20,724 nt of DNA from the NCBI GenBank assembly GCA_964247135.1, contig CAXTTL010000065.1, positions 1 to 20,724 on the forward strand, given 5' to 3'. The notes beneath the pieces are model-generated. The model worked only from the letters and a program-made list of their open reading frames with translations. It made no database searches and was not told where the DNA came from. The stretch comes from an uncultured Deinococcales bacterium. Its GTDB lineage: Bacteria; Deinococcota; Deinococci; Deinococcales; JAAFIG01. This document shows, piece by piece, positions 1 through 20,700 of the stretch (positions are counted from its first letter, which is position 1; every line of letters starts with the position of its first letter). The position numbers and the translations under genes are program-made.

Positions 1-1748
1 CCCACGCCCATTTCGACCAAACCCATGTAAGTTTCAGAGTGGGCTTGAACATGATCGGCGTACAGGCTCATTTCTGTGCCGCCACCGAGCGCGAGGCTGA
101 ACGGTGCGGAAACCGTGGGAAACGGACTGAACCGCATACTGGTGGTCATTTTTTGGAACAGGCGGATGCCTTGGTCGATTTCATCAAACTCGCCCGATTG
201 GGCTTGCATCAAAAGCACCGCCAGGTTTGCGCCAGCACTGAAATGCTCGCCCTGGTTGCCCACAACCAAACCAACAAATTGCTCTGGCACGGTTTTCATG
301 GCAAATTGCATCATGCGAATCGCGTCTTCGCCCAAGCTGTTCATTTTGGAATGAAACTCGAGCAATGCCACGCCGTCGCCAATATCCAAGAGGCTTGCGC
401 CTTGCATAGTTTTGACGATTCTCGAGGCGTCTTTTTTCAAGTCTTTGAGGATGATCACGCCATCTTTAACGCTCGAGCCACCTTCGTAAAATTTCTTACC
501 AGAAGCCAGTTGATCGCTGAGGAGTTTGGGAATCTCGAGATTGAGCGCTTTGATGCCAGCAATCACCTGTTCAATTCCGAGGGCATCGCACAAATCGAAC
601 GCGCCAATCTCCCAGGCGAAACCCCATTTCAGGGCGTTGTCCACCTCGAGTACCGTGTCGGCGCAGGCTGGAATGTTGCTGGCAGCAAACCAGATCAAGC
701 CGTAAGTGCTGCGCCGCACCAGATCGCCGTATGCCCCCTCGAGTTTGAGCATGGCTTGAATGCGGTCAATGAGCGGCAAGCCACGAATTGGCTCGAGTTC
801 TGGCAGACGAACTTTGCCTTTGTCTTCGTACTCGAGCGTCTCGTAATTGAGCGTGAGGATGACGCTTTTGCCGTCTGTGCCTTGAATGCGTTTAAAAAAT
901 CCTTCGCCCGTTTTTTCGCCCAAACGCCCCAGAGACACCAGTTTCTCGAGAATCGGCGCTGGGGTGTAATCGAATTCGGTGGCGGCATCCAGATTTTTGG
1001 CAACCATCAAACCAATGTCCAAACCGCTGAGGTCGTTGGTGCGCATGGTGGCGCTCGAGGCATGACCAATGATCGGTCCCATCAGGGCATCGACCACGTC
1101 GGGCGCGAGTCCAAGATTGACGGCATCGCGGGTGATTTGACCCATGCCCCAAACGCCGATGCGGTTGGCGATAAAACCTGGCACGTCTTTGGCAACGACC
1201 ACGCCTTTACCCAGCACTTTATCGCCAAAATCAGAAATGGCTTTGATGACACTCGGTTCAGTGTCTTCTGTTGGGATGACCTCAAGCAACTTTAAATAAC
1301 GCGGTGGGTTGAAAAAGTGCGTGCCCACAAAACGTTTTTTAAACTCGAGCGAACGTCCTTCGATCTGGTCTTTCATGGGAATGCCGCTCGAGTTGGAACT
1401 TAATATCGTGTGTGCTCCAGCCACTTTTTCGACTTTCTCCCAGAATTCGCGCTTTGTTTCCAGACGCTCGAGGATGGCTTCAAAAACCCAGTCCACGTCT
1501 TTTAATTTGACCAAATCATCTTCGACGTTGCCCAATGTAATTAACTTCGCCACAGACGGGTGCATGAACGCGGCGGGTTTGGCTTTTAGGGCACGCTCGA
1601 GTCCGGCTTTGGCGACCTCGTTGCGGTCTTTTGCGCCGTCTTTAACAATGTCGAGCAGCAAAACGGGAATTCCAGCGTTGGCAAGGTGCGCGGCAACGGC
1701 GGCGCCCATTGTTCCAGAACCGACAACGGCAGCTTTTCTAATCTTCAT
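1..1748 (-). CDS. 3-hydroxyacyl-CoA dehydrogenase/enoyl-CoA hydratase family protein (FadN-like), 3' end runs off the window
   Basis: Not in the ORF track because its stop lies outside the window. Manual translation from ATG (CAT 1746-1748) gives MKIRKAAVVGSGTMGAAVAAHLANAGIPVLLLDIV...DVDWVFEAILE (Rossmann GxGxxG of 3HCDH_N). The window edge reads AHSETYMGLVEMGVG (crotonase domain). AGGAG RBS upstream. Confidence 0.93.
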   Translation of the reverse strand, partial: MKIRKAAVVGSGTMGAAVAAHLANAGIPVLLLDIVKDGAKDRNEVAKAGLERALKAKPAAFMHPSVAKLITLGNVEDDLVKLKDVDWVFEAILERLETKREFWEKVEKVAGAHTILSSNSSGIPMKDQIEGRSLEFKKRFVGTHFFNPPRYLKLLEVIPTEDTEPSVIKAISDFGDKVLGKGVVVAKDVPGFIANRIGVWGMGQITRDAVNLGLAPDVVDALMGPIIGHASSATMRTNDLSGLDIGLMVAKNLDAATEFDYTPAPILEKLVSLGRLGEKTGEGFFKRIQGTDGKSVILTLNYETLEYEDKGKVRLPELEPIRGLPLIDRIQAMLKLEGAYGDLVRRSTYGLIWFAASNIPACADTVLEVDNALKWGFAWEIGAFDLCDALGIEQVIAGIKALNLEIPKLLSDQLASGKKFYEGGSSVKDGVIILKDLKKDASRIVKTMQGASLLDIGDGVALLEFHSKMNSLGEDAIRMMQFAMKTVPEQFVGLVVGNQGEHFSAGANLAVLLMQAQSGEFDEIDQGIRLFQKMTTSMRFSPFPTVSAPFSLALGGGTEMSLYADHVQAHSETYMGLVEMGV

Positions 1749-2042
1749 GATGCTCCTAGGATACTCGAGAACAAGATTTTTGAACTTGGTCTAAGTTTAC
1801 GCTCGAGTGGTGGTTTCTGTAAACAGATCAGACATTCGGCTCGAGGATAGCTTTTATTCTCGAGCCAGGGCAAGGTTTTTTGAGGTCACTCGAGCTTGAT
1901 CGCTTTGGGTGAATGCTTCTTACCGCGTGCGGTTTCCTTGTCGAATATTGACAGCAAGATGACTGAAACTTGCTTATACTCTGAAACGTTCATTATCCGT
2001 TCGCCATCACGCTCGAGGGACGCAACTTCTTGAAAGGTCAAC

Positions 2043-4211
2043 ATGAAACGACTACTCTTTCTACCCATCATCACCACCCTCTTCATCGCCTGCCAACAAC
2101 CACCAACCCTGGTGCAGCAACCCAAAGCCATTGGCACGCTCGAGGTGAGTTTTGACCTGGATGCCAAAACAGCCCAGGTTTCTCGAGTTGCGAACCGTTC
2201 GGTGCTGACCCCAAGCCAAGTCAGTTTTACCAAACCCAATTCGCTCAGTTTTCTGGCGGACGCCACCACAGGCACGAATTACATCGGCGCGACGTTTGGC
2301 GTGAACAACCTCACCAACAACCCAATCACCGATTTGACCATCGTGGCGTACCAACAAACTGGCAACGCCGCCGACACCGCCCTGAAAAGCATCACCGATT
2401 TCAACAGCATCCCGTTAACCGCCACCCAACTTCAAACCTTCGCCCGTTCGGTGCAACCCACCAATTTTCCAAGTGCCGTCAGCCCACTGACCACCAACAA
2501 CACCCTGGCGGATTTACAACTCTTCCAAGAGTCCGAACTTGGCAGCCTCGAGACTGCCGCCAACAGTGCTGGCGAGATCAACACCGCAGGCGGCGAATAC
2601 CTGTTCCCTTACGGTTTTGTTGCCAGAAGCTCCAGCACCTCGAGGACGCTGGCAGCCAACAGCACCAACAATCAAGTCACCATTTCGATCCGAATTCCCA
2701 ACAACAACGAACCCAGCGTGGCAAACGCCAGACGGTTCGTGATGACCTTTGCGGTGTTCGACCAACCGCTTGGCGCGGGCGTCAAACGCATGAGCGAAAG
2801 TTATGAAGAACGCCACGGCACAAGCGCCGCCACTCGAGCCAGCAGCTTTGGCATTGCGTCAACTGCAATAGCGCAGTTAACCTCGAGCAGCGTGAGCAGT
2901 GGCATTTTGGTCAACGGGGTGCGCACCGCAGGCAGCAGCAGCAATGTTCAACGCATTCTGGGCGAACGCAGTTGGCAATTTGGCACAACTGCATCCGAAT
3001 ACGCTTACGGCGTGGCAACAGACCCAAGCGGCAATGTCTACTTGACTGGTGGTATCGAGAGCGGCAGTTTAGACGGTGTGACCACTGGCGGACTTGTCGA
3101 TCTGATCCTGGTCAAATACAACGCCAGCGGTGTCAGACAATGGATCAGGCAACTTGGTATCAATCCAAGCAATGGTACAACCGATAACGTTTACGGCTGG
3201 TCTATTGCGGCTGACTCGAGCGGTAACACCTACATTACCGGCGCAGTCAATGGAGATTTGGATGGTGCGGGACCAGAAGCAAGTGCCGGTGGAGACGATG
3301 TTATCGTTATCAAATACGATACCAATGGTACAAAGCAATGGGCGCACCAATTTGGATCAAATTCAACTGATTTTGGCGACAGTATCACCGTGGATTCCAG
3401 CAGCAATGTTTACATCACTGGTTTGACAAATGGTGATATTGATGGCGCAGGACCCGAAGTCTATGCGGGAAACGGAGATACGTTCGTTACCAAGTACAAC
3501 TCGAGCGGTGTAAGACAATGGATCAAGGAATTCGGAACAAGTACCAGCAGTGACATTGGTGCTGGTGTTGGCGTTGACTTCGGTGGCAATGTTTATGTTT
3601 CAGGTTACAGTGGTGGCAATTTTGATGGCAACACCAGCGCTGGAAGTTACGATAATTTTGTTATCAAGTTTAACTCCAGTGGTACGAAACAATGGTCAAG
3701 ATTACTTGGCACCACTGGAAACGAAACAGCTTACGGAATTGCAGTTGATGCCAACGGCAATTCATATACAACAGGAACTACCACAGGGAGCCTAGATGGC
3801 AATGTCAATCCACAGGTTGGAAATCAAGACCTTTACTTAATCAAATACGACTCGAATGGTAACAAACAATGGACTCGGCAATTTGGTGCGAGCGCCCAAG
3901 ATTATGCTTCAGAAGTTGCCCTTGATTCAACCGGTAATGTTTACATTTCTGGTTATGTGTTGGCTGCCGTCGATGGTAATTTCTTTGCTGGCAACCAAGA
4001 TATTGTTATCGTTAAATACGATACAAACGGCATCAAAAAATGGTCAAAACTTCTTGGCACAAGCGATTACGATAGCACTGGAGACATGGCAATCGAACCC
4101 AATGGTGATGTTTACTTGGGAACACAAACAACAACGGGCTGGGGAGGTGTCACCCACCTTGGTTCGAGTAGTGCAAGTGATATTTTGCTGCTTCGTGTGA
4201 GCAGCAACTAA
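2043..4211 (+). CDS. Lipoprotein with C-terminal SBBP beta-propeller repeats
   Basis: Signal peptide with lipobox LFIA-C. About seven repeats of the type 'D.A.gia.D..GNVYvtG.t.G..dG....G..D....KY...G.kqW.rqfG' from about aa 310. GAAAGG RBS. Confidence 0.88.
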   Translation: MKRLLFLPIITTLFIACQQPPTLVQQPKAIGTLEVSFDLDAKTAQVSRVANRSVLTPSQVSFTKPNSLSFLADATTGTNYIGATFGVNNLTNNPITDLTIVAYQQTGNAADTALKSITDFNSIPLTATQLQTFARSVQPTNFPSAVSPLTTNNTLADLQLFQESELGSLETAANSAGEINTAGGEYLFPYGFVARSSSTSRTLAANSTNNQVTISIRIPNNNEPSVANARRFVMTFAVFDQPLGAGVKRMSESYEERHGTSAATRASSFGIASTAIAQLTSSSVSSGILVNGVRTAGSSSNVQRILGERSWQFGTTASEYAYGVATDPSGNVYLTGGIESGSLDGVTTGGLVDLILVKYNASGVRQWIRQLGINPSNGTTDNVYGWSIAADSSGNTYITGAVNGDLDGAGPEASAGGDDVIVIKYDTNGTKQWAHQFGSNSTDFGDSITVDSSSNVYITGLTNGDIDGAGPEVYAGNGDTFVTKYNSSGVRQWIKEFGTSTSSDIGAGVGVDFGGNVYVSGYSGGNFDGNTSAGSYDNFVIKFNSSGTKQWSRLLGTTGNETAYGIAVDANGNSYTTGTTTGSLDGNVNPQVGNQDLYLIKYDSNGNKQWTRQFGASAQDYASEVALDSTGNVYISGYVLAAVDGNFFAGNQDIVIVKYDTNGIKKWSKLLGTSDYDSTGDMAIEPNGDVYLGTQTTTGWGGVTHLGSSSASDILLLRVSSN

Positions 4212-4257: not shown

Positions 4258-4660
4258 AAGTTGAGTTTTGATGGCTGTTGTCACAAAACGGTTTGTTGTT
4301 CGATTGCCCACAAGTACACAAGGTCGCTCGAGTTTCAGGCTGTATTTCACCAGCAACATTCAAAAACACCAGATCACCCCGCACCTCGAGCCGCCCATCT
4401 GGAAGGGAACGAAATGTTGTCGGGCTTGATGGAATTTCCGTCACACCGCTCGAGCTTTCAAACTGCAATGCGCCCGACGGACAACGGCTGACCACGTCCA
4501 TCACCCGTTCGGCGCTGGCATGATTGGGTCGAATCCACGGTCGCGCTTTGGAATCAAACACTTCTGGCAAGCCTCGCACGCATTCGCCTGCATGAATGCA
4601 ACGGCTCGAGTCAAAAAACACGGTGATGTCGGGGCTGGTATAGGCTTTGCCGGGTTTCAT
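4256..4660 (-). CDS. Divergent 4Fe-4S (Fer4_19, YjdI-like) plus CDGSH iron-sulfur domain protein
   Basis: Start moved to MKPGKAY (CAT 4658-4660, GAGGTG RBS). CIHAGECV...PWI...CPSGAL marks Fer4_19, and LCTCGQSNNKPFCDNSH marks a CDGSH-type site. Confidence 0.88.
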   Translation of the reverse strand: MKPGKAYTSPDITVFFDSSRCIHAGECVRGLPEVFDSKARPWIRPNHASAERVMDVVSRCPSGALQFESSSGVTEIPSSPTTFRSLPDGRLEVRGDLVFLNVAGEIQPETRATLCTCGQSNNKPFCDNSHQNST

Positions 4661-4674
4661 GCGTTCACCTCGAG

Positions 4675-4986
4675 TTAGCTCACCATGTACAAAAATCGTT
4701 CCGGCACAAGATCGCGGTACTCCTGATGCCGACGGATGTACGCCGCCACAAACGGGCAAAGCGGCACGGCACTGAAATGGTTGGCTCGGGCATCATCGAG
4801 CGCGAATTTGATCAAGGCACTCGCCACGCCTTGCCCCTCGAGCGACTCTGGGACTTCAGTGTGGGTAAAAATGCTGACATCGCCTTTGGAGTGGTACTCG
4901 GCAACCGCCAGCGCCTCTCCGATGCGGGCTTCAAAGCGTCCTAGGTCTTTGTTGTTGACGATCTCGAGGTTTGATTGGGTGCTCAT
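4675..4986 (-). CDS. GNAT family N-acetyltransferase (YjdJ / Acetyltransf_CG type)
   Basis: FTHTEVPESLEGQGVASAL...VPLCPFVAAYIRRH signature, AGGAG RBS, adjacent to the YjdI-like gene. Confidence 0.9.
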   Translation of the reverse strand: MSTQSNLEIVNNKDLGRFEARIGEALAVAEYHSKGDVSIFTHTEVPESLEGQGVASALIKFALDDARANHFSAVPLCPFVAAYIRRHQEYRDLVPERFLYMVS

Positions 4987-5030
4987 TTCACTCCTGATTT
5001 TCTGATCTTGGCTGCTCGAGACAAGTTAAA

Positions 5031-6611
5031 CTATTCGCGCACGCCTTGAATATTGCCGATGCACATTTCATCCTGGGTGCTTTCGCCCCAGACGATGTAA
5101 CGCGGTTTTTCTTGCACGCCGTTGATCCAGGGTTGATTTTGTGGGCTGTTGTCGTAGATGCAAGTAATCCGCAACGTATCGCCCTTGTAAATCTTGAAGG
5201 GTTTTTCAAAATAAAACGCGCTCTGCCAGTGAAAATCCCAGTGCGGAATGTCCAAGGCGACAATCCGTTTTTTGGGATCGTTTGGATTGATCTCGAGCTT
5301 GACGCTCGAGCCTCGGGTGTGCATGTGACCTTGTGCACCGATTGCCAGAAGGTTTTTGTTGACTGGAAAATCACATTGCGTCACGACTTTATTTGAATTC
5401 TCGCCACTTGTTGGCAGTTCATGTTTGCAGACCGTTGCCATCAGACCGCTGTGCAAAATGTTGGTCAACCAAGGTTCTTGGTATTTGCTCACGGCTTTGT
5501 ACGCCGCTTCACGGTTGCAAGGGTCGCTCGAGTCGGTCGGGTACACTCCAGCGCATGGAATTTCGACGGCGGCGGCAGCCGCAGCCATTCCAAGTGGCTT
5601 GAGGACTTCACCTGGCTTGGACAGGTAAAACTGCGCGGTCGTGCGGTCTGTTAGCACCTCGTCGGCTTTGGCTGCCAGCAGGTTGTAATGCACCTGCATC
5701 ACGAGTTGCGTGCCAGGTTTTAAGGCAATCCCCGTGCCTTCGGGAAATTCAATGGCGCTCGAGCCTGGAACCCACGAACCCGCGTAACCCAGCACGTCCT
5801 CGGCTTTGGTGGTGTCGCCAGTCGTGGCGGCATTGGCTGCCGCATCGCGCAGCGCCTGATTGCCCACGTTTGGACCGCCAAAGCAAGTCCAGCCCCCTCG
5901 AGCGTCGCTGTCTGCCTCGCGCTGCTTGGCTTCAAGAATGGTTTTTCCTTGAATCGAAAACAGAATCACGTGATGCACCACGCTCGGGTCGCCTGGCACA
6001 ATGTTGTAACCCGTGATAAAGCGCTGCGACTCGAGTTTGGGGTCGATCAGAAAACAACGGTACTCGTCGGTCAGGCTGCGGTCTGGCGCAAAATCGCGTC
6101 CGGTATCGATGCTTAAATCTGGTTTGGCTTGAGCCTTTTTGGCTGCAACTGGCGCGGCAGTCTCGAGCTTCCCAAGCGGTGAACCCGCCCACTGCCAATT
6201 TGCCAGAATCGCAATTTCGTTGTCGGTCAAGACCCTGGCGTCCTTGAATGCTGGACTCTCCCCTGCTGGCAACCAAGGCGGCATCCGTTTGCTTTGCACC
6301 GCCAACTGCACGGCTCGAGCGTGTTCAATGGCGGCTTTGGGATCGGTCAGGCTGAACGGCGCGATGCCGCCTTCGGTGTGACACCCTGCGCATTTTGCCT
6401 CGAGAATCGGACGGACATGACCGTAATAGGTGGGAATGTAAGGCAGGACTGGTGGCAAACTCGAGTTGAGGTTGCCCTGCCAGGAGTTGTGCGAATGCGC
6501 CAACATTGGACGGGTTTCACCGACGCTCGAGCGCCGAACGCCCGCCATCGCTCCGCCGAGCAACGCCAAACCGAGTGCCATCACAACCAAAATTCGAGCG
6601 TTGGGTTTCAT
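5031..6611 (-). CDS. Exported c-type cytochrome / copper type II ascorbate-dependent monooxygenase-like protein
   Basis: Likely start MKPNAR (CAT 6609-6611) with an N-terminal hydrophobic segment. Heme motif CAGCH and MPPW. PHM/DBH-like copper motifs VHHVIL, QVHYN, HMHTRG and DEMC. Confidence 0.85.
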   Translation of the reverse strand: MKPNARILVVMALGLALLGGAMAGVRRSSVGETRPMLAHSHNSWQGNLNSSLPPVLPYIPTYYGHVRPILEAKCAGCHTEGGIAPFSLTDPKAAIEHARAVQLAVQSKRMPPWLPAGESPAFKDARVLTDNEIAILANWQWAGSPLGKLETAAPVAAKKAQAKPDLSIDTGRDFAPDRSLTDEYRCFLIDPKLESQRFITGYNIVPGDPSVVHHVILFSIQGKTILEAKQREADSDARGGWTCFGGPNVGNQALRDAAANAATTGDTTKAEDVLGYAGSWVPGSSAIEFPEGTGIALKPGTQLVMQVHYNLLAAKADEVLTDRTTAQFYLSKPGEVLKPLGMAAAAAAVEIPCAGVYPTDSSDPCNREAAYKAVSKYQEPWLTNILHSGLMATVCKHELPTSGENSNKVVTQCDFPVNKNLLAIGAQGHMHTRGSSVKLEINPNDPKKRIVALDIPHWDFHWQSAFYFEKPFKIYKGDTLRITCIYDNSPQNQPWINGVQEKPRYIVWGESTQDEMCIGNIQGVRE

Positions 6612-6689
6612 TTCAAAACGATAGCAAAAAATCGTGAATTCAAGATCATGCAAAAGCACAATCTCGAGCTTTCGGGTTAAACTTATTTA

Positions 6690-8866: not shown

Positions 8867-8941
<75 letters not shown>

Positions 8942-11053: not shown

Positions 11054-13987
11054 TTGTCAAAAACCTTAATTATTGTGGAATCGCCTGCTAAGGCGAAAAC
11101 CATCTCGAAATTTCTGGGTGCGGGCTATGTGGTCGAGTCAAGTTTTGGGCACATTCGTGATCTGCCGCGCAATGCCGACGAAGTTCCAGCCAAGTACAAG
11201 GGCGAGCCTTGGGCGCGGCTGGGGATCGATGTCAACAACGATTTCGCACCCTTATATGTGGTCAATGCCGACAAACGCCAGCAGGTCGCCAAGCTTAAAG
11301 CGCTTTTGAAAGACTCGAGCGAAGTGATTCTGGCGACAGACGAGGACCGCGAGGGTGAGGCGATTGCCTGGCATTTATTAGACGAACTCAAACCCAAAGT
11401 GCCGATCAAGCGCATGGTCTTTCATGAAATCACCAAAGAGGCGATTCTGAACGCCCTCAAAAACCCTCGAAAGGTCGATGACAATTTGGTGCAAGCCCAG
11501 GAGACACGTCGGGCGCTGGATCGTTTGTACGGTTTTGAGGTTTCGCCAGTTCTCTGGAAAAAAGTCAAACCGCAACTCTCGGCAGGACGTGTGCAGAGTG
11601 TGGCGACACGTTTGCTGGTCGAACGCGAACGCGAACGCATGGGCTTCACGCCCGCCAGTTGGTGGGACATTGACGCCAAGTTTGAAACCTTAAAACACGA
11701 AGAATTTCCCGCCAGCCTGATCGAACTCGAGGGTAAGCGCCTGGCGTTGGGCAAAGATTTTAATCCCAAAGGCGAATTTGTCGGCGGCGATAAGATCGTG
11801 CGCCTCAACGAACCCGAGGCTCGAGCGCTGGCAGCCAGTTTGAAGGGCGCGAATTTTAAGGTTTTAAGTACAGAAGAAAAACCGTTCACGCAGCGCCCCT
11901 ATGCGCCGTTCATCACCAGCACCCTGCAACAAGAGGGTGGGCGCAAGCTGAACTTTACCGCCCAGCGCACCATGAGAACCGCACAGCGCTTGTACGAAGG
12001 CGGTTACATCACCTACATGCGAACCGACAGCACCAGCCTCTCCAAAGAGGCGCTGAACGCGGCTCGAGAGCAAGTGCGCGATCTTTACGGCGAAAGCTTC
12101 CTGCACCCAACGCCGCGCACCTACGAGAAAAAAGTCAAAAACGCCCAGGAAGCCCACGAAGCGATTCGACCCGCCGGCGAAAAATTCCGCACCCCACAAG
12201 AATTACGTGGCGAATTGGGTGAAGACGAATGGAAAGTCTACGACCTGATCTGGAAACGCACCGTCGCATCACAAATGGCGGACGCTCGAGGGCGCAGGCT
12301 TGCTGTACGAATCGGTGCAACCTCGAGCGATGGTCGCGCAGTGGTTTTTGCAGCGTCGGGTAAAACCATTGATTTTGCAGGCTTTTTGCGGGCTTACGTC
12401 GAAGGTTCAGACGATCCTGAAGCCGCACTCGAAGACCGTGAAATCAACCTGCCAGCACTGGCACAAAATGACCGAGTGACCGACAAAACGCTCGAGCCGA
12501 AGGGTCACACCACCCAAGCCCCAGCCAGGTTCACCGAAGCATCCTTGGTGCAAGCACTTGAGGAGAAGGGCATTGGACGCCCGAGCACCTATGCCAGCAT
12601 CATTCAGACCATTCAAGACCGTGGTTATGTCTTCAAACGCGGCACGGCGTTGATTCCAACCTTTATCGCCTTTTCGGTCGTGACACTGCTCGAGAAGCAC
12701 TTCACCAAACTCGTCGATTACAGTTTCACCGCCAAACTCGAGGATGACCTTGACGGCATCGCCAACGGTGAGCAAAAGCGCACGCCTTACCTGAATAAAT
12801 TCTATTTTGCACCCGAATTCGGTTTAAAACCCATGATTGCCGAAAACCTCGAGAGCATCGACCCTCGAGCCATCGCCACCATTTTTGTGCCGCGACTCGA
12901 GGGCAGCGGCATCGAAGTTCGGGTTGGACGCTACGGCAGTTTTATGCAGCGCGGCGATCAAAAAGGCAATATCCCAGAGGATTTCCCACCAGACGATTTG
13001 ACGCTTCAAAAAGCTGAAGAGTTATTGACGCAAAAATCCAACGAACGCGAATTGGGCATTGATCCACACTCTGGCATGACCGTCAGCGCCAAATCAGGAC
13101 GCTTTGGACCATATGTGAGCCTCGGCAACCCTGGCGAGGTCGGCGTGAAAAATGCCAGCCTCTTCCCGACCGATAAAATTGAAGAGATTACCCTCGAGCA
13201 CGCCCTGAAACTCTTGTCACTGCCGCGTTACGTTGGTGTTTCGCAAGGCGAGGAAGTCTGGGCGTTCAACGGCAAATTTGGTCCGTACATCAAACGCGGC
13301 GGGCAAGAAGACAAGGGTGACTCGAGAACCATCAGCAGCCACGAAGAATTGTTCAGCATCACGTCAGAACAAGCCGAAGCGGTTTTTGCCCAACCCAAAA
13401 CCAGAGGTCGTGCCGCGCCCAAACCGCCCGCCAAAGTCTTCGAGTTTGAAGACCGCAAACCCATCGAACTGCGCGACGGACGTTTTGGACCGTATTTGTC
13501 CGACGGTGAAATGAACGCCTGGTTACGCGCCGGTGACCGCCCAGACGACCTTGACGCCGACCGCGCTCGAGATATTTTTAACGAACGCGCCAAGCTGCCC
13601 AAAGGCAAACCCGTCAAAAAAGCCCCAACCACCAAAACCGCCACCAGCAAAACCAGTACCACAAAAACCGCCACTCGAGCCGCCAAAACCACCACCAAAA
13701 AAGCCCCAACCCGAGCCGCCAAAAAAGTCAGCAAACCCAAAGTGACCAAAGCCTCAGTTGCCAAAACCCCAAGCGAAAAACCCGCCTGGACTGAACTCGA
13801 GCCTTTCGCGCAAACCTTTGACCCGACCACCGCGCAACTTTTAAAACTGGTCAACGGTCAAGGTGTGAAAATGGCAGAAGCCGCCACGCAATTGCGCATC
13901 ACCCCAGAAGACGCCATGAGCCGATTTAGGGCGTCGAACTTTAAGTTGTACAATTTGTACCGTAAATCTCGAGCTGCCAGCGTTTGA
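11054..13987 (+). CDS. topA: Type I DNA topoisomerase
   Basis: LIIVESPAKAKTI, ATDEDREGEAI, SAGRVQS, ITYMRTDS, AHEAIRP and GIGRPSTYA motifs. C-terminal GRF/YGPY repeats and a Lys/Thr-rich tail. TTG start with GAGGGG RBS. Confidence 0.98.
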   Translation: MSKTLIIVESPAKAKTISKFLGAGYVVESSFGHIRDLPRNADEVPAKYKGEPWARLGIDVNNDFAPLYVVNADKRQQVAKLKALLKDSSEVILATDEDREGEAIAWHLLDELKPKVPIKRMVFHEITKEAILNALKNPRKVDDNLVQAQETRRALDRLYGFEVSPVLWKKVKPQLSAGRVQSVATRLLVERERERMGFTPASWWDIDAKFETLKHEEFPASLIELEGKRLALGKDFNPKGEFVGGDKIVRLNEPEARALAASLKGANFKVLSTEEKPFTQRPYAPFITSTLQQEGGRKLNFTAQRTMRTAQRLYEGGYITYMRTDSTSLSKEALNAAREQVRDLYGESFLHPTPRTYEKKVKNAQEAHEAIRPAGEKFRTPQELRGELGEDEWKVYDLIWKRTVASQMADARGRRLAVRIGATSSDGRAVVFAASGKTIDFAGFLRAYVEGSDDPEAALEDREINLPALAQNDRVTDKTLEPKGHTTQAPARFTEASLVQALEEKGIGRPSTYASIIQTIQDRGYVFKRGTALIPTFIAFSVVTLLEKHFTKLVDYSFTAKLEDDLDGIANGEQKRTPYLNKFYFAPEFGLKPMIAENLESIDPRAIATIFVPRLEGSGIEVRVGRYGSFMQRGDQKGNIPEDFPPDDLTLQKAEELLTQKSNERELGIDPHSGMTVSAKSGRFGPYVSLGNPGEVGVKNASLFPTDKIEEITLEHALKLLSLPRYVGVSQGEEVWAFNGKFGPYIKRGGQEDKGDSRTISSHEELFSITSEQAEAVFAQPKTRGRAAPKPPAKVFEFEDRKPIELRDGRFGPYLSDGEMNAWLRAGDRPDDLDADRARDIFNERAKLPKGKPVKKAPTTKTATSKTSTTKTATRAAKTTTKKAPTRAAKKVSKPKVTKASVAKTPSEKPAWTELEPFAQTFDPTTAQLLKLVNGQGVKMAEAATQLRITPEDAMSRFRASNFKLYNLYRKSRAASV

Positions 13988-16423: not shown

Positions 16424-16497
16424 CTCTAACTCGAGCATCCACCGAACTGTTCTCTTCAACACCACAAAACCCGCCACAGCCTGTACAATGCCTGCTT

Positions 16498-17607: not shown

Positions 17608-17630
17608 AACTCAAGTGATAGGATTTTGAC

Positions 17631-17831
17631 ATGAGTAAAATTGCCCAACTTGAACAAGAAATAGAATCCTTGACACCCGAGGAGTTGCTCGAGTTTCGAG
17701 GGTGGTTTAAGGAATTTGAAGCCAAGCTTTGGGATGAAGAGTTTGAACGAGATGTTCAAGCGGGTCGGCTAGATGCGCTTGCTGAACAGGCAATTCAAGA
17801 TTTTCAAGCTGGACGATTTAAGAAGTTGTAA
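17631..17831 (+). CDS. Small acidic protein, putative antitoxin
   Basis: 66 aa with the pattern 'IE.L..EEL..FR.WF.....WD....D...G.LD.LA..A..D...G', which I recognise as typically lying directly upstream of ParE-like toxins. Confidence 0.75.
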   Translation: MSKIAQLEQEIESLTPEELLEFRGWFKEFEAKLWDEEFERDVQAGRLDALAEQAIQDFQAGRFKKL

Positions 17832-17855
17832 TTGTCAGATTTCTAAAAGTGTATT

Positions 17856-18884
17856 CTATTCTCGATTTTGATTAAAATGCGCAATTGCTTCATTTGCTTT
17901 GCGTTCTCTATAAGCAGCTTGCTTACACGCATTATCACAATACAATTTCTTCTCGGAATTCCGATTAATCAATGTAAACCATTTGCCACACCTGTCACAC
18001 TTAAGGTATTCGGTACCTCGAGTTACTGCCTGAGCAAATTGCAACCATAAAGCATCTACAAGAGCGTCAGGAAGCAACATTAAATCCAAGTGCCTACTTA
18101 AAGGCTTACCCATATTCCAAAGTACCTTTGAACTTATGCCTGTAAGCCTTTCATTGATGTTTGAAAGTATTGTATGATTTACTGCATCAGTGAGTTTAGG
18201 TTTGTCAAAATTTTCAGGCAATTGAATTGATTGCAGAAAATCACCTGCAACAAATATTGAATTAGAATTTGGCAATTCTCGATGTTGACCAGACTTCACT
18301 ATTTCAAGTAGTTCTGGACGTGAAACAAAAAACCACTGGTAACGATCTTTTGTCTTTGGAATCAAGTGCTGTTCTAATGCTGTAACATTACCGTCTCGCA
18401 TATAATCCCAGATAACAGCAAGACGTTTCATTTCGACAATGTTTTCATACCAAGCATCAAAAGTCTCACCTACTTCCCAAATAATCAAAGATTCCTTGGG
18501 AATATTCGTATCGCTGGTTTGAACTCTTGTAATGAAGTCACCCTTATATGCTCGAATTGGATCTAAGTCTGAAATAGGAATGTCAATAACAACAGTTGGA
18601 GCGTTAACTTTGGGGTTACCCATGCTTGCTACTGGTCGAAACAACCTTCCATACTTTGAAGCAAAGACTTCAATGTCTCTTTCAGTAGGCTCAAGATCAA
18701 CAAATTCGCGCCACAGTGCAGAAGCTTTAAGAAGCTCATACCTACGAACCGTTCTTTCTAACCCTGTTGCCCGAGGAATTAGCAGGCGATAGGGAGGCTT
18801 TTCATCTGTTACCAAACTATTTGGGAACGTTCGGAATTCATAACCCTCTAGTTCTACTTCCCAAGAAAAAAATTCTGGCGACAT
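17856..18884 (-). CDS. Hypothetical protein with C-terminal CGNR-like zinc finger (putative DNA-binding)
   Basis: 342-aa AT-rich ORF with GGAGG RBS. C-terminus CDRCGKWF...KLYCDNACKQAAYRERK gives a Cx2C...Cx3C finger plus a basic helix. Confidence 0.78.
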   Translation of the reverse strand: MSPEFFSWEVELEGYEFRTFPNSLVTDEKPPYRLLIPRATGLERTVRRYELLKASALWREFVDLEPTERDIEVFASKYGRLFRPVASMGNPKVNAPTVVIDIPISDLDPIRAYKGDFITRVQTSDTNIPKESLIIWEVGETFDAWYENIVEMKRLAVIWDYMRDGNVTALEQHLIPKTKDRYQWFFVSRPELLEIVKSGQHRELPNSNSIFVAGDFLQSIQLPENFDKPKLTDAVNHTILSNINERLTGISSKVLWNMGKPLSRHLDLMLLPDALVDALWLQFAQAVTRGTEYLKCDRCGKWFTLINRNSEKKLYCDNACKQAAYRERKANEAIAHFNQNRE

Positions 18885-18895
18885 CCTTCAACCTC

Positions 18896-18937
18896 CGTAA
18901 CAAGTTCGTAACATGCTTCTGTTACGAACTTGTTACG
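18896..18937. repeat. Perfect 18-bp inverted repeat built of four CGTAACA heptamers
   Basis: CGTAACAAGTTCGTAACA (18896-18913), 6-nt spacer, TGTTACGAACTTGTTACG (18920-18937). Confidence 0.9.
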
Positions 18938-18992
18938 CTAATATTATCCTTTGCCGTCTTGAAATACAAGCGGCTAACGTCTAATCTACCTT

Positions 18993-19265
18993 ATGAAATT
19001 TCAAGACCAAAATCACTTCACCACGCCAAACTTTTGGGCAAATTATGAAGCCTTACCAAAAACCATCCAAACCCTTGCAAACAAGAATTTTGAATTACTG
19101 AAACAAAATCCTCGCCATCCATCGCTGCATTTTAAGAAAGTGGGTCGTTACTGGTCGGCTCGAGTTGGTGACGATCACCGTGCTGTCGCTGTCGAGATTG
19201 AACAAGGCTTGCTGTGGTTCTGGATCGGTTTGCATGACGACTACGAACGCATCATCCGCAATTAA
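18993..19265 (+). CDS. ParE/RelE-like toxin
   Basis: HFTTPNFW..Y..LP...Q..A.K.F.LLK.NPRHPSLHFKKVG..WSARVG..HRA...LLWFWIG.H.DY pattern of ParE-like toxins. Confidence 0.82.
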   Translation: MKFQDQNHFTTPNFWANYEALPKTIQTLANKNFELLKQNPRHPSLHFKKVGRYWSARVGDDHRAVAVEIEQGLLWFWIGLHDDYERIIRN

Positions 19266-19278
19266 TATCGAGAGACAC

Positions 19279-19307
19279 TTGCTGTATAAAGCTCGAGAAC
19301 GTACAAT
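19279..19307 (+). promoter_or_regulatory. Sigma70-type promoter of the CAT tRNA
   Basis: TTGCTG (19279-19284), 17-nt spacer, TACAAT (19302-19307). Confidence 0.65.
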
Positions 19308-19317
19308 TCCAAAGCAC

Positions 19318-19394
19318 GGGTCTGTAGCTCAATCGGTTAGAGCAGCGGTCTCATAAACCGTTGGTTTCGGGTTCAAGTCCCGACGGACCCACCA
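19318..19394 (+). tRNA. tRNA with CAT anticodon (tRNA-Met by anticodon; probably lysidine-modified tRNA-Ile2)
   Basis: Acceptor GGGTCTG/CGGACCC, anticodon loop CTCATAA, T arm GGTTCAAGTCC, ACCA end. A paired G1-C72 and no GGG/CCC anticodon stem rule out the initiator. The acceptor stem resembles tRNA-Ile. Confidence 0.95.
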
Positions 19395-19424
19395 AAAGAA
19401 AAGCTGTTCAGTACCGCAAAAATA

Positions 19425-19464
19425 AACCACCCCTTAAGCCTGAAACAACGCTTGAGGGGTGGTT
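19425..19464. terminator. Hairpin/terminator after the tRNA
   Basis: AACCACCCCTTAAGC / GCTTGAGGGGTGGTT, 15 bp with one G-T pair. Confidence 0.65.
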
Positions 19465-19567
19465 GGATGTAGTACAGATGTAGTAGAGATTGTTAATTCA
19501 ATGGAAGACGTTCTGAAACGACTAAAATTTTGTGGACAACAAGTTCCGAGACACCAAATGAACAAAC

Positions 19568-19870
19568 ATGCGCAAATACAAAACCTACACCCCAGAATTC
19601 AAACACGAAGCCATCACACTTGCTAAAACTGAAGGGGTTAGGAAAACTGCTACCAACCTTGGCATTAACCCGAACATCATCCACCGTTGGAAAAACGAAC
19701 AAGAAACCCGTATCACAAACGCAAAACCTGTTTTCACAGGACGTGGCAATCAGGTACTGACGGATGCCGATGCGGAAAACCAGAAATTACGTCGTGAACT
19801 CGAAATCACCCGCCAAGAACGTGACATCTTAAAAAAAGCCGTGACCTTTTTCGCCAAAGAAACCCGTTAA
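19568..19870 (+). CDS. IS3 transposase OrfA (HTH_Tnp_1)
   Basis: YTPEFKHEAI...ATNLGI....IHRWK...ENQKLRRELEITRQERDILKKAVTFFAKE. Confidence 0.9.
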   Translation: MRKYKTYTPEFKHEAITLAKTEGVRKTATNLGINPNIIHRWKNEQETRITNAKPVFTGRGNQVLTDADAENQKLRRELEITRQERDILKKAVTFFAKETR

Positions 19871-20700
19871 GATTCGCGTTCATCCTCAAGCACCGCAGCG
19901 AATTTGAGTTTGAAATCATGTGCACAACGCTCGAGGTGAGCACAAGCGGTTATCACGCGTGGCGGAAAAGGTCAGAGTCAAGGACGTCCAAAGAGAAAAA
20001 CTTAGCTACAAAGATTAAAATCTTACACTCGAACAGCAGGAACACGTATGGCAGCAGTCGAATTCACGCGATCCTCCTTGAACAACACGATTATTGCAGC
20101 CGACCTCGAGTGGCAAGCATCATGCTCGAGCACGGATTGAAAGGAACACGAAAAGGTAAGACCAATAAGAAACAAACCACGAATTCCAATCACCAGCACG
20201 CGATAGCGGAGAATAAACTCGAGCGTAATTTCAAAGCGGACAAACCGAATTATAAATGGGTGGCTGACATTACCTACCGACATTGACGGGCTGATTGTAC
20301 TTGGCAGTCGTAATCAATTTGTTCTCGAGAAGAGTTGTAGGTTGGAGCATGAGTTTAACGCTCGACACAAAGATCGTGTTGGACGCGTTAGAAATGGCTC
20401 GAATCTCAAGGGAACCGAGTGAAGGATTGGTGTATCACAGTGATCGAGGGGTGCAATAACGCGGCTCGAGTGCATCGGGCGGCTGTAGCGAAGTTGGGTG
20501 GTATCTCGAGCATGAGCAGAAAAGGAAATTGTTGGGATAGCGACCATGCCCGCTAGGTGCGTTTTGTGGTCAAGAAAATGCCGTGGCTGAAAGCTTCTTT
20601 GCGACGTTGAAATGCGAACTGGATTTGGATAAGGCGATTGGGTCTATCGCTGAAACTCGAGGGGTGGTGTTTGAATGGATTGAAGTTTGGTACAAGCGCG
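19867..20700 (+). pseudogene. IS3 transposase OrfB (integrase core), inactivated
   Basis: Recognisable MC..LEVS.SGY.AW, WVADITY, LYLAVVINLFSRRVVGWSM, HSDRGVQ, SMSRKGNCWD and NAVAESFFATLK. Frameshift near 20280, stops at 20292 (W to TGA) and 20457 (Y to TAA), and a 38-nt insertion at 20539-20576. Confidence 0.9.

What the first reader, a model, noticed from the sequence alone, without database searches (positions are those of the whole stretch)
357..20661. CTCGAG is a highly iterated palindrome (about 25-fold excess): candidate HIP1/DUS-like system
Seen: a manual count gives about 135-140 copies in 20.7 kb (6-7 per kb; 20 in the first 2.04 kb), where a random hexamer would occur about 5 times. 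It appears in all three coding frames (CTC-GAG Leu-Glu; xCT-CGA-G as in Ala-Arg or Thr-Arg; xxC-TCG-AGx as in Ser-Ser or Ser-Arg) and densely in intergenic DNA (six copies in 1764-2017), so amino-acid preference cannot explain it. Known: palindromic restriction sites (this is the XhoI/PaeR7I site) are usually avoided. Comparable excesses are cyanobacterial HIP1 (GCGATCGC, linked to methyltransferase sites) and Neisseria/Pasteurellaceae uptake sequences. Inference: a genome-wide process creates or selects this motif, such as methylation-directed repair, uptake/recombination bias or nucleoid-protein binding. I cannot confirm whether it has been described for this lineage.
Basis: partly seen in the sequence, partly recalled or inferred. 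Interest (0 to 1): 0.85.

Follow-up and report, generated by a model that had tools for sequence, protein, structure and literature searches.

The report
Highly iterated CTCGAG palindrome in Deinococcales
The six-letter palindrome CTCGAG occurs about 34,000 times in this uncultured Deinococcus relative and throughout its bacterial family, and is actively preserved even where it changes proteins, which makes it a second natural case of the still unexplained "highly iterated palindromes" so far known from cyanobacteria.

Summary
The window holds 138 CTCGAG copies against 3.7 expected. The whole 5.09-Mb genome holds 33,925 (6.7 per kb, 25-fold over base composition), and CTCGAG is its commonest hexamer.

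- **Codon use does not explain it.** Shuffles that keep protein sequence and codon usage give about 4,000 copies against 29,074 observed in genes. Intergenic DNA is denser still.
- **It has reshaped coding.** 77% of all Leu-Glu dipeptides are written CTC-GAG, and Leu-Glu is the most over-represented dipeptide.
- **The sites are preserved.** Silent third-codon positions inside the motif are kept 89% of the time between species of the genus, against 54-64% for the same codons elsewhere.
- **It is a family trait.** All 18 other genomes of the family have 4.3-6.8 copies per kb, at 46-62% GC in the pieces sampled. Two Deinococcaceae outliers share it, Deinococcus itself purges the site, and Thermus is neutral.
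- **The usual causes were not found.** There is no XhoI-type nuclease, no Vsr and no methyltransferase that follows the trait.

I read it as a highly iterated palindrome (HIP) of the cyanobacterial kind. A fixation bias of about e^3 for the exact hexamer holds it in place. The most likely source is a dimeric protein that recognises self DNA during uptake or recombination (about 0.4). Five literature searches found no prior description.

The parts
357..20661 (.). Array of 138 dispersed CTCGAG hexamers (6.7 per kb): 63 as CTC-GAG (Leu-Glu), 20 as xCT-CGA-G, 25 as xxC-TCG-AGx and 30 intergenic.
   Evidence: One search gives the list and the shuffle control. One search gives the frames by my own gene calls. 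No longer repeat unit surrounds the sites (the commonest 10-mer covers 833 of 33,925 sites).
1764..2017 (.). Six copies in the spacer between the divergent 3-hydroxyacyl-CoA dehydrogenase gene (3-1748, minus strand) and the beta-propeller gene (2043-4211, plus strand). Local density is 20 per kb at 46% GC.
   Evidence: The flanks of the six copies differ, so they are not copies of one element.
11054..13987 (+). topA (DNA topoisomerase I) with 19 CTCGAG copies, used as the marker for cross-family comparison. Fourteen site positions are shared by at least 10 of 18 family genomes, and 6 of these also by the Deinococcaceae outlier G196.
   Evidence: (Pfam).
2043..4211 (+). SBBP beta-propeller repeat gene. 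The five same-genus genomes gave no match to it (one 91-base match only), and in G005 the matches to its two flanks lie about 65 bases apart. It carries about half the usual motif density (8 sites, 3.7 per kb).
   Evidence: Pfam; G005:C54 matches window 1-1825 and 4266-6670 about 65 bases apart.
17701..19917 (.). Low-GC stretch (41.6%) with only 3 sites (1.35 per kb), containing tRNA-Met (19318-19394). It looks like recently acquired DNA that has not yet taken up the motif.
   Evidence: Same-genus genomes gave only short, low-identity matches to it. Genome-wide, most of the longest motif-free gaps are low-GC stretches.

Best explanation
CTCGAG is a highly iterated palindrome (HIP) of the cyanobacterial kind: a lineage-wide sequence watermark of an uncultured Deinococcales family that is sister to Deinococcaceae.

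Shown:
- The exact hexamer is held at about 34,000 dispersed copies per genome. The odds for it are about 20-33-fold (S of about 3) over each synonymous alternative.
- The bias acts on all resident DNA, whatever the frame or coding status.
- It works mainly by retaining existing sites.
- It is strong enough to shift amino-acid sequences.

Inferred:
- The bias comes from a protein that reads the hexamer as a symmetric dimer, because the flanks show a weak two-fold symmetric preference in spacers as well.
- The most likely setting is preferential uptake or recombination of DNA that carries the mark, a molecular drive like that of uptake sequences. Current work on HIP1 points the same way. Methylation of the site may or may not be part of the signal.
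- The same hexamer was probably already enriched in the common ancestor of this family and Deinococcaceae. It was later lost in one lineage (G197) and purged in Deinococcus.
For: Excess:
- 138 copies in the window against 3.7 expected.
- 33,925 in the genome: 24.8-fold over base composition, 35-fold over a first-order and 14-fold over a second-order Markov expectation.
- Every one of 386 contigs is enriched.

Not a coding effect:
- Genes hold 29,074 copies. Shuffles that keep protein and codon usage give about 3,985, and codon-order shuffles about 1,690. Spacers have 7.4 per kb, and spacers of 20-100 bases 10.8 per kb at 43% GC.
- 76.9% of 23,559 Leu-Glu dipeptides are CTC-GAG. 42% of [SPTA]-R-[VADEG] and 48% of X-S-[SR] contexts use the motif. 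Synonymous odds ratios are 20-33.

Retention:
- Between same-genus genomes at about 85% identity, 73-79% of hexamers are conserved against 41-46% of control hexamers.
- The third base of CTC is kept in 88.8% of 331 comparisons when GAG follows, against 54.3% of 326 otherwise. GAG gives 88.8% against 63.5%, CGA 89.5% against 57.8% and TCG 85.5% against 74.0%.
- Of 144 site columns, 56 are present in all genomes, 41 are single-genome losses and only 12 are single-genome gains.

Proteome effect:
- Leu-Glu is the most over-represented dipeptide (observed/expected 2.34, against 1.01 for Glu-Leu).
- At 67 CTC-GAG positions of G253, the motif-free relative G197 has Leu-Glu at only 23.

Symmetric flanks: in 4,136 purely intergenic sites, A at -3 is 0.43 and T at the mirror position is 0.43, against a background of 0.27.

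Lineage:
- 18 of 18 other family genomes have 4.3-6.8 per kb, at 46-62% GC in the sampled pieces.
- The phylum scan of 301 genomes shows two Deinococcaceae outliers, G253 at 7.0 per kb and G196 at 3.6 per kb.
- Shared topA site positions and the topA tree fit one gain and two losses.

Setting:
- ComEC and secretin genes are present in G000, G011, G253 and G196.
- Density peaks just after stop codons, at 13.6 per kb.
- Low-GC, probably foreign, stretches lack the motif.
- HIP1 is now tied to transformation efficiency and to type IV pilus and competence genes (PMC13756078, passages read).

Sites whose nuclease gene sits in this genome are almost eliminated: GGCC 0.016-fold, CCGCGG 0.006-fold and CCSGG 0.066-fold. 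CTCGAG is therefore not a restriction target here.
Against: - No reader protein was identified.
- Known uptake sequences are 9-12 bases long, asymmetric and occur about once per kb (recalled). This motif is a 6-base palindrome at 6.7 per kb.
- ComEC and secretin are also present in G197, which lacks the motif. Thermus and Deinococcus are naturally competent (recalled), yet they show no enrichment or show avoidance. Competence genes therefore do not separate the states.
- Palindromy, and identity with the XhoI/PaeR7I site, point at least as much to a methyltransferase-type enzyme.
- Spacing is close to random below 1 kb. The variance/mean ratio of 0.91 at 500 bases is about what the motif's self-exclusion gives by my estimate. 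There is no sign of one site per fragment.
- Single-genome losses outnumber gains 41 to 12. This may mean net decay in this genus, or it may be parsimony noise.
- The figure S of about 3 is an inference from ratios, not a fitted model.
- Conservation cannot separate selection from biased restoration.
Confidence: 0.4

Rival explanations
1. Methylation-linked ratchet or epigenetic mark. An orphan CTCGAG (or TCGA-core) methyltransferase marks the site, and a methyl-directed or mismatch-type repair restores or favours it. This is the model Elhai proposed for HIPs.
For: - The motif is a 6-base palindrome identical to a classical type II site, with two-fold symmetric flank preferences.
- The family carries many methyltransferases: N6_Mtase in 18 of 18, N6_N4 in 16 of 18 and C5 in 17 of 18 genomes.
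- The sister clade Deinococcus avoids the same hexamer. Such a change of sign is typical of restriction-modification targets.
- One-base variants are commonest at the outer positions: TTCGAG/CTCGAA 1.7-fold, CCCGAG/CTCGGG 1.4-fold and CTTGAG/CTCAAG 1.17-fold. Elhai reported the same for HIP1 (PMC4390886, abstract and passages).
- Methylated CTCGAG has been detected in hot-spring communities (preprint 10.64898/2026.06.24.734251, passages). It was not assigned there to this family.
Against: No methyltransferase group follows the trait in the genomes searched:
- The single-contig genome G011 has no PF01555 hit. Its one C5 enzyme sits in a defence-type operon and has no relative above 35% identity among the family C5 enzymes compared. 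Its N6 enzymes are type I-like or type IIG-like.
- G008 has no C5 enzyme.
- G196 has no PF01555 hit, and only one C5 enzyme plus large type IIG-like enzymes.
- The methyltransferase next to an XhoI nuclease gene in G021 has no orthologue in the family.

Vsr was found in 0 of 19 family genomes. The variants that deamination of a methylated inner C would produce are not depleted. In frame, CTT-GAG is about 3-fold above the codon-usage expectation by my arithmetic on the counts.
Confidence: 0.25
2. Direct selection on the chromosome. Each site is a weak binding or structural element for a nucleoid or chromosome-organising protein. This is the reading Xu, Lawrence and Durand gave for HIP1.
For: - Sites are conserved within and between reading frames, the argument used for HIP1 (PMC5861425, abstract).
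- Symmetric flanks suggest a dimeric binder.
- The trait persists over a wide GC range and since before the split of two families.
Against: - No candidate protein was found.
- About 34,000 sites, each needing its own selective value, is demanding.
- Placement below 1 kb is close to random.
- Periodicity at 10-90 kb, the HIP1 evidence, could not be tested on a fragmented assembly.
- Three related lineages live without the motif (G197, Thermus-like g9 and Deinococcus-like g7).
Confidence: 0.15
3. Defence-related saturation. The site is kept abundant as a self-mark or decoy for a modification-dependent or modification-based immune system of the lineage.
For: - The genome is shaped by many restriction systems. 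GGCC, CCGCGG, CCSGG, GAGCTC, RGATCY and many other palindromes are nearly absent.
- Three matching nuclease-methylase pairs were found.
- Large type IIG/SNF2-type enzymes occur in G000, G011, G253 and G196 but not in G197.
Against: - The large enzymes are not orthologous to one another (27-30% identity where any).
- Such enzymes usually read asymmetric sites (recalled).
- No known defence system requires its own site to be enriched (recalled).
Confidence: 0.08
4. Context-specific mutation bias. A polymerase, deaminase or repair quirk keeps producing CTCGAG from near-matches without any reading of the finished site.
For: - The excess is highest where constraint is lowest: short spacers, and the first 25 bases after stop codons.
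Against: - New sites are rare (12 single-genome gains against 41 losses in 144 columns).
- Sites stay at the same positions across genera and families.
- No near-match is depleted as a precursor pool would be.
- The same hexamer is favoured from 46% to about 68% GC.
Confidence: 0.07
5. By-product of codon, dipeptide or amino-acid preference, or an artefact of assembly or binning.
For: - 62% of the genic copies are CTC-GAG, and Leu-Glu is a common dipeptide.
Against: - Shuffles that keep protein and codon usage give 7.3-fold fewer copies.
- Spacers are denser than genes.
- Outside the motif, CTC makes up only 14.8% of Leu codons and GAG 32% of Glu codons.
- Nineteen separate assemblies, one of them a single contig, agree.
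Confidence: 0.01

Closest known systems
HIP1 (GCGATCGC) and the alternate HIPs of cyanobacteria (Elhai 2015, PMC4390886; Xu et al. 2018, PMC5861425; Rodriguez-Cruz et al. 2026, PMC13756078)
   Same: It is a short perfect palindrome, tens of times over expectation, dispersed rather than part of a repeat unit, and present in genes and spacers. Sites are conserved between related genomes beyond the background. The trait covers a lineage, with single relatives that lack it. One-base variants are commonest at the outer positions. The function is unknown.
   Different: It is a hexamer, not an octamer, and it occurs in a different phylum. Its density of 6,663 per Mb compares with 300-2,700 per Mb for HIP1 (passage of PMC4390886). 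No cognate methyltransferase was found. HIP1 itself is nearly absent here (its core CGATCG has 47 copies). A sister clade actively avoids the same word.
DNA uptake sequences of Neisseriaceae (DUS) and Pasteurellaceae (USS)
   Same: It is a genome-wide excess of one word in genes and spacers, with measurable distortion of protein sequences (Findlay and Redfield 2009, PMC2817400, abstract start only). It is rare in foreign DNA. The organisms carry competence genes.
   Different: Known uptake sequences are 9-12 bases long, asymmetric and occur about once per kb (recalled). Uptake bias is untested here and no receptor is known.
Methylated RAATTY as a self-mark for natural transformation in Campylobacter jejuni (CtsM); recalled, no call
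   Same: It is a six-base palindromic word that could tell self DNA from foreign DNA at uptake.
   Different: That system rests on a known orphan methyltransferase. A comparable genome-wide excess was not part of what I recall, and neither point was tested here.
XhoI/PaeR7I restriction-modification site
   Same: The word is identical.
   Different: An XhoI-family nuclease was found in 0 of 19 family genomes. The site is enriched, not avoided. The methyltransferase linked to XhoI in G021 has no orthologue in the family.
CCWGG excess through Dcm/Vsr very-short-patch repair in E. coli (recalled)
   Same: It is a palindrome favoured by a repair bias.
   Different: There is no Vsr, the T:G-derived neighbours are not depleted, and the excess here is far larger.

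Membership tests
Highly iterated palindromes (HIP class) | A short perfect palindrome, many-fold over expectation (15-300-fold for HIP1) | tested here: met
   24.8-fold over base composition, 35-fold over a first-order and 14-fold over a second-order Markov expectation, and 7.3-fold over protein- and codon-preserving shuffles.
Highly iterated palindromes (HIP class) | Dispersed single words in genes (all frames) and spacers, not part of a longer repeat | tested here: met
   Frame counts are 18,109, 4,304 and 6,661, with 4,764 intergenic copies. Flanks are only weakly biased, and the top 10-mer covers 833 of 33,925 sites.
Highly iterated palindromes (HIP class) | Sites conserved between related genomes beyond the background | tested here: met
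   73-79% against 41-46% of control hexamers. Silent positions are kept 86-90% of the time inside the motif against 54-74% outside it.
Highly iterated palindromes (HIP class) | A methyltransferase specific for the word is present wherever the word is frequent (Elhai's rule) | tested here: inconclusive
   No methyltransferase group follows the trait. Specificity cannot be read from sequence, and most of the genomes are incomplete.
Highly iterated palindromes (HIP class) | Periodic placement at 10-90 kb (Xu et al. 2018) | not tested
   The genome is in 386 contigs, and only pieces of the complete relative G011 could be fetched.
HIP1 proper | The word GCGATCGC, in cyanobacteria, with the DmtA and DmtC enzymes | tested here: not met
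   The core CGATCG has 47 copies (0.03-fold). The organism belongs to Deinococcales.
DNA uptake sequences (DUS/USS) | Cells take up DNA with the word in preference | not testable with these tools
   This needs uptake or transformation assays.
DNA uptake sequences (DUS/USS) | Competence machinery present | tested here: met
   ComEC and secretin were found in G000, G011, G253 and G196, but also in the motif-free G197. The feature is permissive only.
DNA uptake sequences (DUS/USS) | An asymmetric word of 9-12 bases, about one per kb | tested here: not met
   The word is a 6-base palindrome at 6.7 per kb, and no strong extension exists.
DNA uptake sequences (DUS/USS) | The word distorts the proteome | tested here: met
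   Leu-Glu has observed/expected 2.34, the top dipeptide. G253 has Leu-Glu at 44 positions where G197 has another dipeptide.
Type II restriction-modification target (XhoI/PaeR7I) | Cognate nuclease gene present and the site avoided | tested here: not met
   PF04555 was found in 0 of 19 family genomes. The site is enriched, while sites with resident nucleases are nearly absent. A PaeR7I-type nuclease has no model that I could search.
Very-short-patch repair product (Dcm/Vsr type) | Vsr endonuclease present and T:G-derived neighbours depleted | tested here: not met
   Vsr was found in 0 of 19 family genomes. CTTGAG and CTCAAG stand at 1.17-fold.
Dispersed repeat elements (REP or MITE type) | Conserved sequence extends beyond the core word | tested here: not met
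   The highest flank frequency is 0.43. The six spacer copies at 1764-2017 have unrelated flanks.

The most novel reading that the evidence does not exclude
CTCGAG is a family-wide self-DNA watermark, read by a still unknown dimeric protein of the uptake or recombination machinery that is not a methyltransferase. It would be a six-base palindromic uptake or recombination signal. That would be the densest such signal known and the first outside Proteobacteria and cyanobacteria. It would be old enough to predate the split from Deinococcaceae.
Probability: 0.2. Interest if true: 0.9.

Novelty: new variant of a known kind. Interest (0 to 1): 0.78.

Why it matters
Highly iterated palindromes have been studied for some thirty years in one phylum only, and their function is still debated between repair, chromosome structure and DNA uptake.

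A second, independent case helps in four ways:
- The word, the phylum and the GC range differ, so features specific to HIP1 can be separated from general ones.
- The natural contrasts lie close together: enriched family members, two enriched Deinococcaceae, a neutral relative (G197) and a purging sister genus (Deinococcus).
- Culturable Meiothermus-like relatives show a weaker form (2-4-fold over codon-preserving shuffles), so the question could be taken to the bench.
- The site is cut by a common commercial enzyme, which makes methylation and uptake tests simple.

There are practical uses too. The word is a strong compositional marker for binning this family, for spotting foreign DNA within it and for recognising its mobile elements.

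Tried and rejected
- **Maximal-order Markov expectation.** It gives a ratio of only 1.24. Its sub-words CTCGA and TCGAG come almost entirely from the motif, so it is uninformative. I used lower orders and shuffles instead.
- **XhoI nuclease family and Vsr.** Neither was found in 19 family genomes.
- **Methyltransferase linked to the XhoI nuclease of G021.** It has orthologues only in G027 and G022, which are not enriched.
- **Census of N6_Mtase, N6_N4_Mtase, C5 and Eco57I-type enzymes, with pairwise comparison of those fetched.** No group follows the trait.
  - The most interesting one is an orphan-looking N4/N6 enzyme beside alaS in G000 (C36:20010-21056). It is 67% identical to one in G253, but a like-sized PF01555 hit appears in only 3 of 19 family genomes, and G011, G196 and G197 have no PF01555 hit.
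  - A PF01555 enzyme conserved at 71-95% identity in the Meiothermus-like genera has no close relative among the family's PF01555 genes that I fetched.
- **Even-spacing test.** The slight under-dispersion at 500 bases is about what self-exclusion of the word gives, so I claim no evenness.
- **"Fossil" decayed sites in G197.** A few examples occur in topA, but the larger set shows no clear signal.
- **First 20 kb of contig C1 as a second alignment set.** It has no counterpart in the five same-genus genomes. The next 20 kb aligned in part and was used.
- **Viral contig scan for three sites within about 80 bases.** It returned mostly high-GC contigs with 2-6 sites per kb, which is not specific to this family.
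- **Competence genes.** They are present in enriched and non-enriched genomes alike, so they do not discriminate.
- **Public sequencing runs.** One run held 0.07 of the sampled words, kept as contigs only.
- **The careful tree search did not finish.** The tree used is the quick one.
- **Supplementary files of papers were not opened.** The supplementary tables of PMC4390886 and PMC5861425 may list over-represented words that I could not see.

Full report
**1.

The window contains 138 exact CTCGAG copies. Dinucleotide-preserving shuffles give 3.71 (sd 1.91, largest 9; 0 of 100 reach 138). Twenty sites start at or before 2040, and six lie at 1764-2017. Those six sit in the spacer between two divergent genes and have unrelated flanks. 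By my own gene calls, 63 sites read CTC-GAG, 20 read xCT-CGA-G, 25 read xxC-TCG-AGx and 30 are intergenic.

**2. The excess covers the whole genome**

The window is the whole of contig C65 of a 5,091,702-base assembly in 386 contigs. The assembly is 84% complete with 1.8% contamination. It holds 33,925 copies, or 6.7 per kb.

- CTCGAG is the commonest hexamer, and the next commonest hexamers are its one-base shifts.
- The excess is 24.8-fold over base composition, 35-fold over a first-order Markov expectation (963) and 14-fold over a second-order one (2,351).
- Every contig has 2.6-11.3 copies per kb, with a median of 6.8.
- The sites are not part of a longer repeat. The commonest 10-mer that contains the word covers 833 of 33,925 sites.

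**3. It is not a coding by-product**

My own gene calls (open frames scored by codon usage; 4,567 genes, 87.5% coding) have limits, and "intergenic" includes any genes I missed.

| Compartment or control | Copies or density |
|---|---|
| Genes | 29,074 copies, 6.54 per kb |
| Intergenic DNA (46.5% GC) | 4,764 copies, 7.43 per kb |
| Spacers of 20-100 bases (43% GC) | 10.8 per kb |
| Shuffles keeping each protein and its codon usage (5 runs) | 3,886-4,087 copies |
| Shuffles of codon order (5 runs) | 1,672-1,697 copies |

The frame labels for frames 1 and 2 were swapped in the printout. The correct counts are CTC-GAG 18,109, xCT-CGA-G 4,304 and xxC-TCG-AGx 6,661.

Use of the available contexts is close to saturation:
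- 76.9% of 23,559 Leu-Glu dipeptides are CTC-GAG. Outside the motif, CTC is 14.8% of Leu codons and GAG is 32% of Glu codons.
- 42.3% of 10,181 [SPTA]-R-[VADEG] tripeptides use the motif.
- 48.3% of 13,798 X-S-[SR] tripeptides use the motif.
- Odds ratios against synonymous Leu-Glu spellings are 20-33.

**4. Proteins have been bent to fit the motif**

Leu-Glu is the most over-represented dipeptide of the proteome (observed/expected 2.34), while Glu-Leu stands at 1.01.

I compared orthologous alignments of the enriched G253 and the motif-free G197, which belong to the same GTDB genus and are 64-74% identical in DNA. G253 has CTC-GAG at 67 positions. G197 has Leu-Glu at only 23 of them and has Leu-Asp, Leu-Ser, Leu-Ala and other dipeptides at the rest.

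**5. The sites are retained**

I compared G000 with five same-genus genomes at about 85% identity.
- 73-79% of the window's hexamers are intact in each relative, against 41-46% of control hexamers.
- A matched control uses the same codon inside and outside the motif:

| Codon | Third base kept inside the motif | Third base kept elsewhere |
|---|---|---|
| CTC | 88.8% of 331 | 54.3% of 326 |
| GAG | 88.8% of 331 | 63.5% of 449 |
| CGA | 89.5% of 95 | 57.8% of 128 |
| TCG | 85.5% of 124 | 74.0% of 273 |

- I examined 144 aligned site columns, from the window plus part of contig C1, each with at least 4 genomes aligned. Of these, 56 are present in all genomes, 41 lack the site in one genome and 12 have it in one genome only (4 of them with a clear ancestral state).
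- The losses are mostly transitions: 14 at the inner CG, 9 at the outer positions and 6 at positions 2 and 5.

Near-matches are not depleted genome-wide. TTCGAG/CTCGAA stand at 1.7-fold, CCCGAG/CTCGGG at 1.4-fold and CTTGAG/CTCAAG at 1.17-fold. They look like decay products of the very large pool of sites.

My inference is as follows. The ratio of the exact word to each transition neighbour is about 19. The synonymous odds are 20-33. The loss rate at silent positions is 3-4-fold lower inside the motif. All three fit one weak fixation bias of S about 3 for the exact hexamer only, acting mainly by retention. This is a reading of ratios, not a fitted model. It cannot tell selection from biased restoration or from biased uptake.

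**6. Placement**

- Counts per 500 bases have a variance/mean ratio of 0.91. By my estimate, that is about what the word's self-exclusion gives. Adjacent copies are impossible because they would create GAGCTC, which has 0 copies.
- At 2-5 kb the ratio rises to 1.4-1.9, because long motif-free gaps exist. Most of the 25 longest gaps are low-GC stretches; the lowest are at 27-40% GC.
- The window shows the same pattern. The low-GC stretch 17701-19917 has 1.35 sites per kb. The beta-propeller gene 2043-4211, to which the same-genus genomes gave no match, has 3.7 per kb.
- By contrast, 20 kb of contig C1 that has no counterpart in the five same-genus genomes still has 116 sites, or 5.8 per kb.
- Density peaks in the first 25 bases after stop codons at 13.6 per kb. 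There is a sharp maximum at offset +5 (142 of 2,937 genes) and a smaller rise 25-50 bases before start codons.
- In 4,136 sites that lie wholly in spacers, the flanks show a weak two-fold symmetric preference: A 0.43 at -3, A 0.34 at -2 and G 0.35 at -1, with the mirror image C, T, T after the site. The background is 0.23-0.27. This suggests a symmetric, dimeric reader that touches a few bases outside the hexamer.

**7. Who has it**

The closest named topA relatives are Deinococcales and Deinococcaceae assemblies. Genome sizes other than G000's are rounded by the tool.

| Group | CTCGAG density or ratio |
|---|---|
| Family f1, all 18 other genomes (5 genera) | 4.3-6.8 per kb; the reversed word GAGCTC nearly absent in most |
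| f1 sampled pieces (46-62% GC): G009 / G011 / G008 | 6.6 / 4.9-5.6 / 4.05 per kb |
| Deinococcus-like genus g7 (100 genomes) | about 0.01-0.27 per kb: avoidance |
| Thermus-like g9 | about 0.9 per kb, equal to GAGCTC; 0.9 times the shuffle expectation |
| Meiothermus-like g13-g15 | 2-3.5 per kb; 2.3-3.9 times the shuffle expectation |
| Family f2 | 0.3-2.9 per kb |
| G253 (family f3) | 7.0 per kb |
| G196 (family f3, 67% GC) | 3.6 per kb; 3.5-4.1 times the shuffle expectation |
| G197 (same genus as G253) | neutral: 1.0 times the shuffle expectation; 4-5% of Leu-Glu written CTC-GAG |

The phylum scan covered 301 genomes, all of one order.

A quick maximum-likelihood topA tree (the careful search did not finish) puts the family as a clade sister to f3. 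Within f3 are G196, the pair G197 plus G253, and Deinococcus. The strong trait needs at least three changes on this tree, for example one gain and two losses.

Of 49 topA site positions used in the family, 14 are shared by at least 10 of 18 genomes across genera. Six of those are also CTCGAG in G196, including positions where the outgroups have other amino acids. This favours an origin before the two families split. It rests on a single gene.

**8. What was looked for and not found**

- An XhoI-family nuclease: 0 of 19 family genomes.
- Vsr: 0 of 19.
- The methyltransferase beside the XhoI gene of G021 has no orthologue in the family. Its 63%-identical relatives sit in two genomes that are not enriched.
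- The family carries many, and very variable, methyltransferases. In G000 those with identifiable partners belong to GGCC (NgoPII-type), CCGCGG (Eco29kI-type) and CCSGG (BcnI/MvaI-type) systems, a type I system and a large Eco57I/SNF2 fusion. The three words are almost eliminated: 0.016-, 0.006- and 0.066-fold. In this genome, therefore, a resident nuclease means avoidance, and CTCGAG is not such a target.
- No methyltransferase group is shared by the enriched genomes. Details are in the rival explanation and under what was tried. This weakens the methylation-led model but does not exclude it.
- ComEC and secretin are present in enriched genomes and in G197 alike.

**9. Comparison with what is known**

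Five full-text searches found no description of a CTCGAG excess in any bacterium, and no HIP outside cyanobacteria. The library lacks most subscription journals and I saw no supplements, so this is "not found", not "not published".

- The HIP literature I read describes 15-300-fold excess, conservation within and between frames, alternate palindromes in single lineages, a proposed link to methyltransferases and, most recently, a link to natural transformation and type IV pilus genes. I read the abstract and passages of PMC4390886, the abstract of PMC5861425 and the abstract and passages of PMC13756078.
- The present case meets the descriptive criteria of that class. It differs in word, length, density and phylum, and in lacking an identified methyltransferase.
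- It shares the proteome effect of uptake sequences, but not their length or asymmetry.

**10. Verdict**

This is a real, very strong, lineage-wide highly iterated palindrome. It is a new variant of a known kind, and its mechanism is unresolved.

| Reading | Odds |
|---|---|
| Self-DNA watermark read during uptake or recombination, possibly through methylation | about 0.4 |
| Methylation-linked repair or epigenetic ratchet | about 0.25 |
| Direct chromosomal or nucleoid function | about 0.15 |
| Defence-related saturation | about 0.08 |
| Context-specific mutation bias | about 0.07 |
| Coding by-product or assembly artefact | about 0.01 |

A methylome, a tree-aware gene-trait scan across the order, and uptake assays in a culturable enriched relative would decide between these readings.

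Noticed in passing
whole genome G000 (for example contigs C14, C178 and C189): Many six-base palindromes are almost absent: GAGCTC 0 copies, GGGCCC 1, CGGCCG 3, AGGCCT 4, CGTACG 5, GGATCC 7 and CCGCGG 11. GGCC has 380 copies against about 24,000 expected, RGATCY is at 0.016-fold and GRGCYC at 0.002-fold. Three avoided words match nuclease-methylase gene pairs in the genome: NgoPII-type at C14, Eco29kI-type at C178 and BcnI/MvaI-type at C189. No gene was found for GAGCTC/GRGCYC.
   Followed up: partly
phylum scan, genus g7 (Deinococcus-like), e.g. G020, G058, G098: The sister clade avoids CTCGAG strongly, with 26-1,010 copies in genomes of 1.9-6.7 Mb at about 67% GC. There were 0 sites in a 20-kb sample and 0 in topA. 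No XhoI-family nuclease was found in the three g7 genomes searched.
   Followed up: partly
window 19513-19633: A stretch of about 120-140 bases matches many contig ends and internal places in G002 and G003 at 84-87% identity. It looks like the end of an insertion sequence or a small mobile repeat that breaks assemblies.
   Followed up: no
window 2043-4211: The five same-genus genomes gave no match to the SBBP beta-propeller gene (one 91-base match only). In G005 the matches to its two flanks lie about 65 bases apart, so it looks like an insertion or a lineage-specific gene. It has about half the usual motif density.
   Followed up: partly
window 8867-8941 and 19318-19394: tRNA-Thr (CGU) and tRNA-Met (CAU) genes. 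Neither contains the motif, though copies lie within 30 bases of both. The low-GC stretch contains the tRNA-Met gene.
   Followed up: no
G000 contig C36:20010-21056 (locus L144:6011-7057): An N4/N6 methyltransferase of 349 aa lies next to alaS (alanyl-tRNA synthetase gene) with no nuclease gene recognised beside it. It is 67% identical to one in the enriched Deinococcaceae genome G253 (L411), about the same as topA (66%). A like-sized PF01555 hit appears in only 3 of 19 family genomes.
   Followed up: partly
loci L403-L408 and L093 (genera g13-g15): A PF01555 methyltransferase of about 295-330 aa is conserved at 71-95% identity across the Meiothermus-like genera, which show moderate CTCGAG enrichment. 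Its downstream neighbour gene is also conserved in the four loci where it was seen. Its specificity is unknown, and it has no close relative among the f1 PF01555 genes that I fetched.
   Followed up: partly
G011:C1:4979000-4987000 (locus L184): The only C5 methyltransferase of this single-contig genome sits in an operon with an HD-CE protein and an ORC/CDC6-like ATPase, which looks like a defence module.
   Followed up: no
G000 contig C1:1-20000 (locus L172): These 20 kb have no counterpart in five same-genus genomes, yet they have a near-normal motif density (116 sites). Accessory DNA of this kind has either been resident for a long time or comes from other carriers of the motif.
   Followed up: no
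genome-wide, first bases after stop codons: There is a sharp maximum of sites starting 5 bases after the first base of the stop codon (142 of 2,937 genes, against about 30 at neighbouring offsets). This places the final A of TAA or TGA at the preferred -3 flank position.
   Followed up: partly
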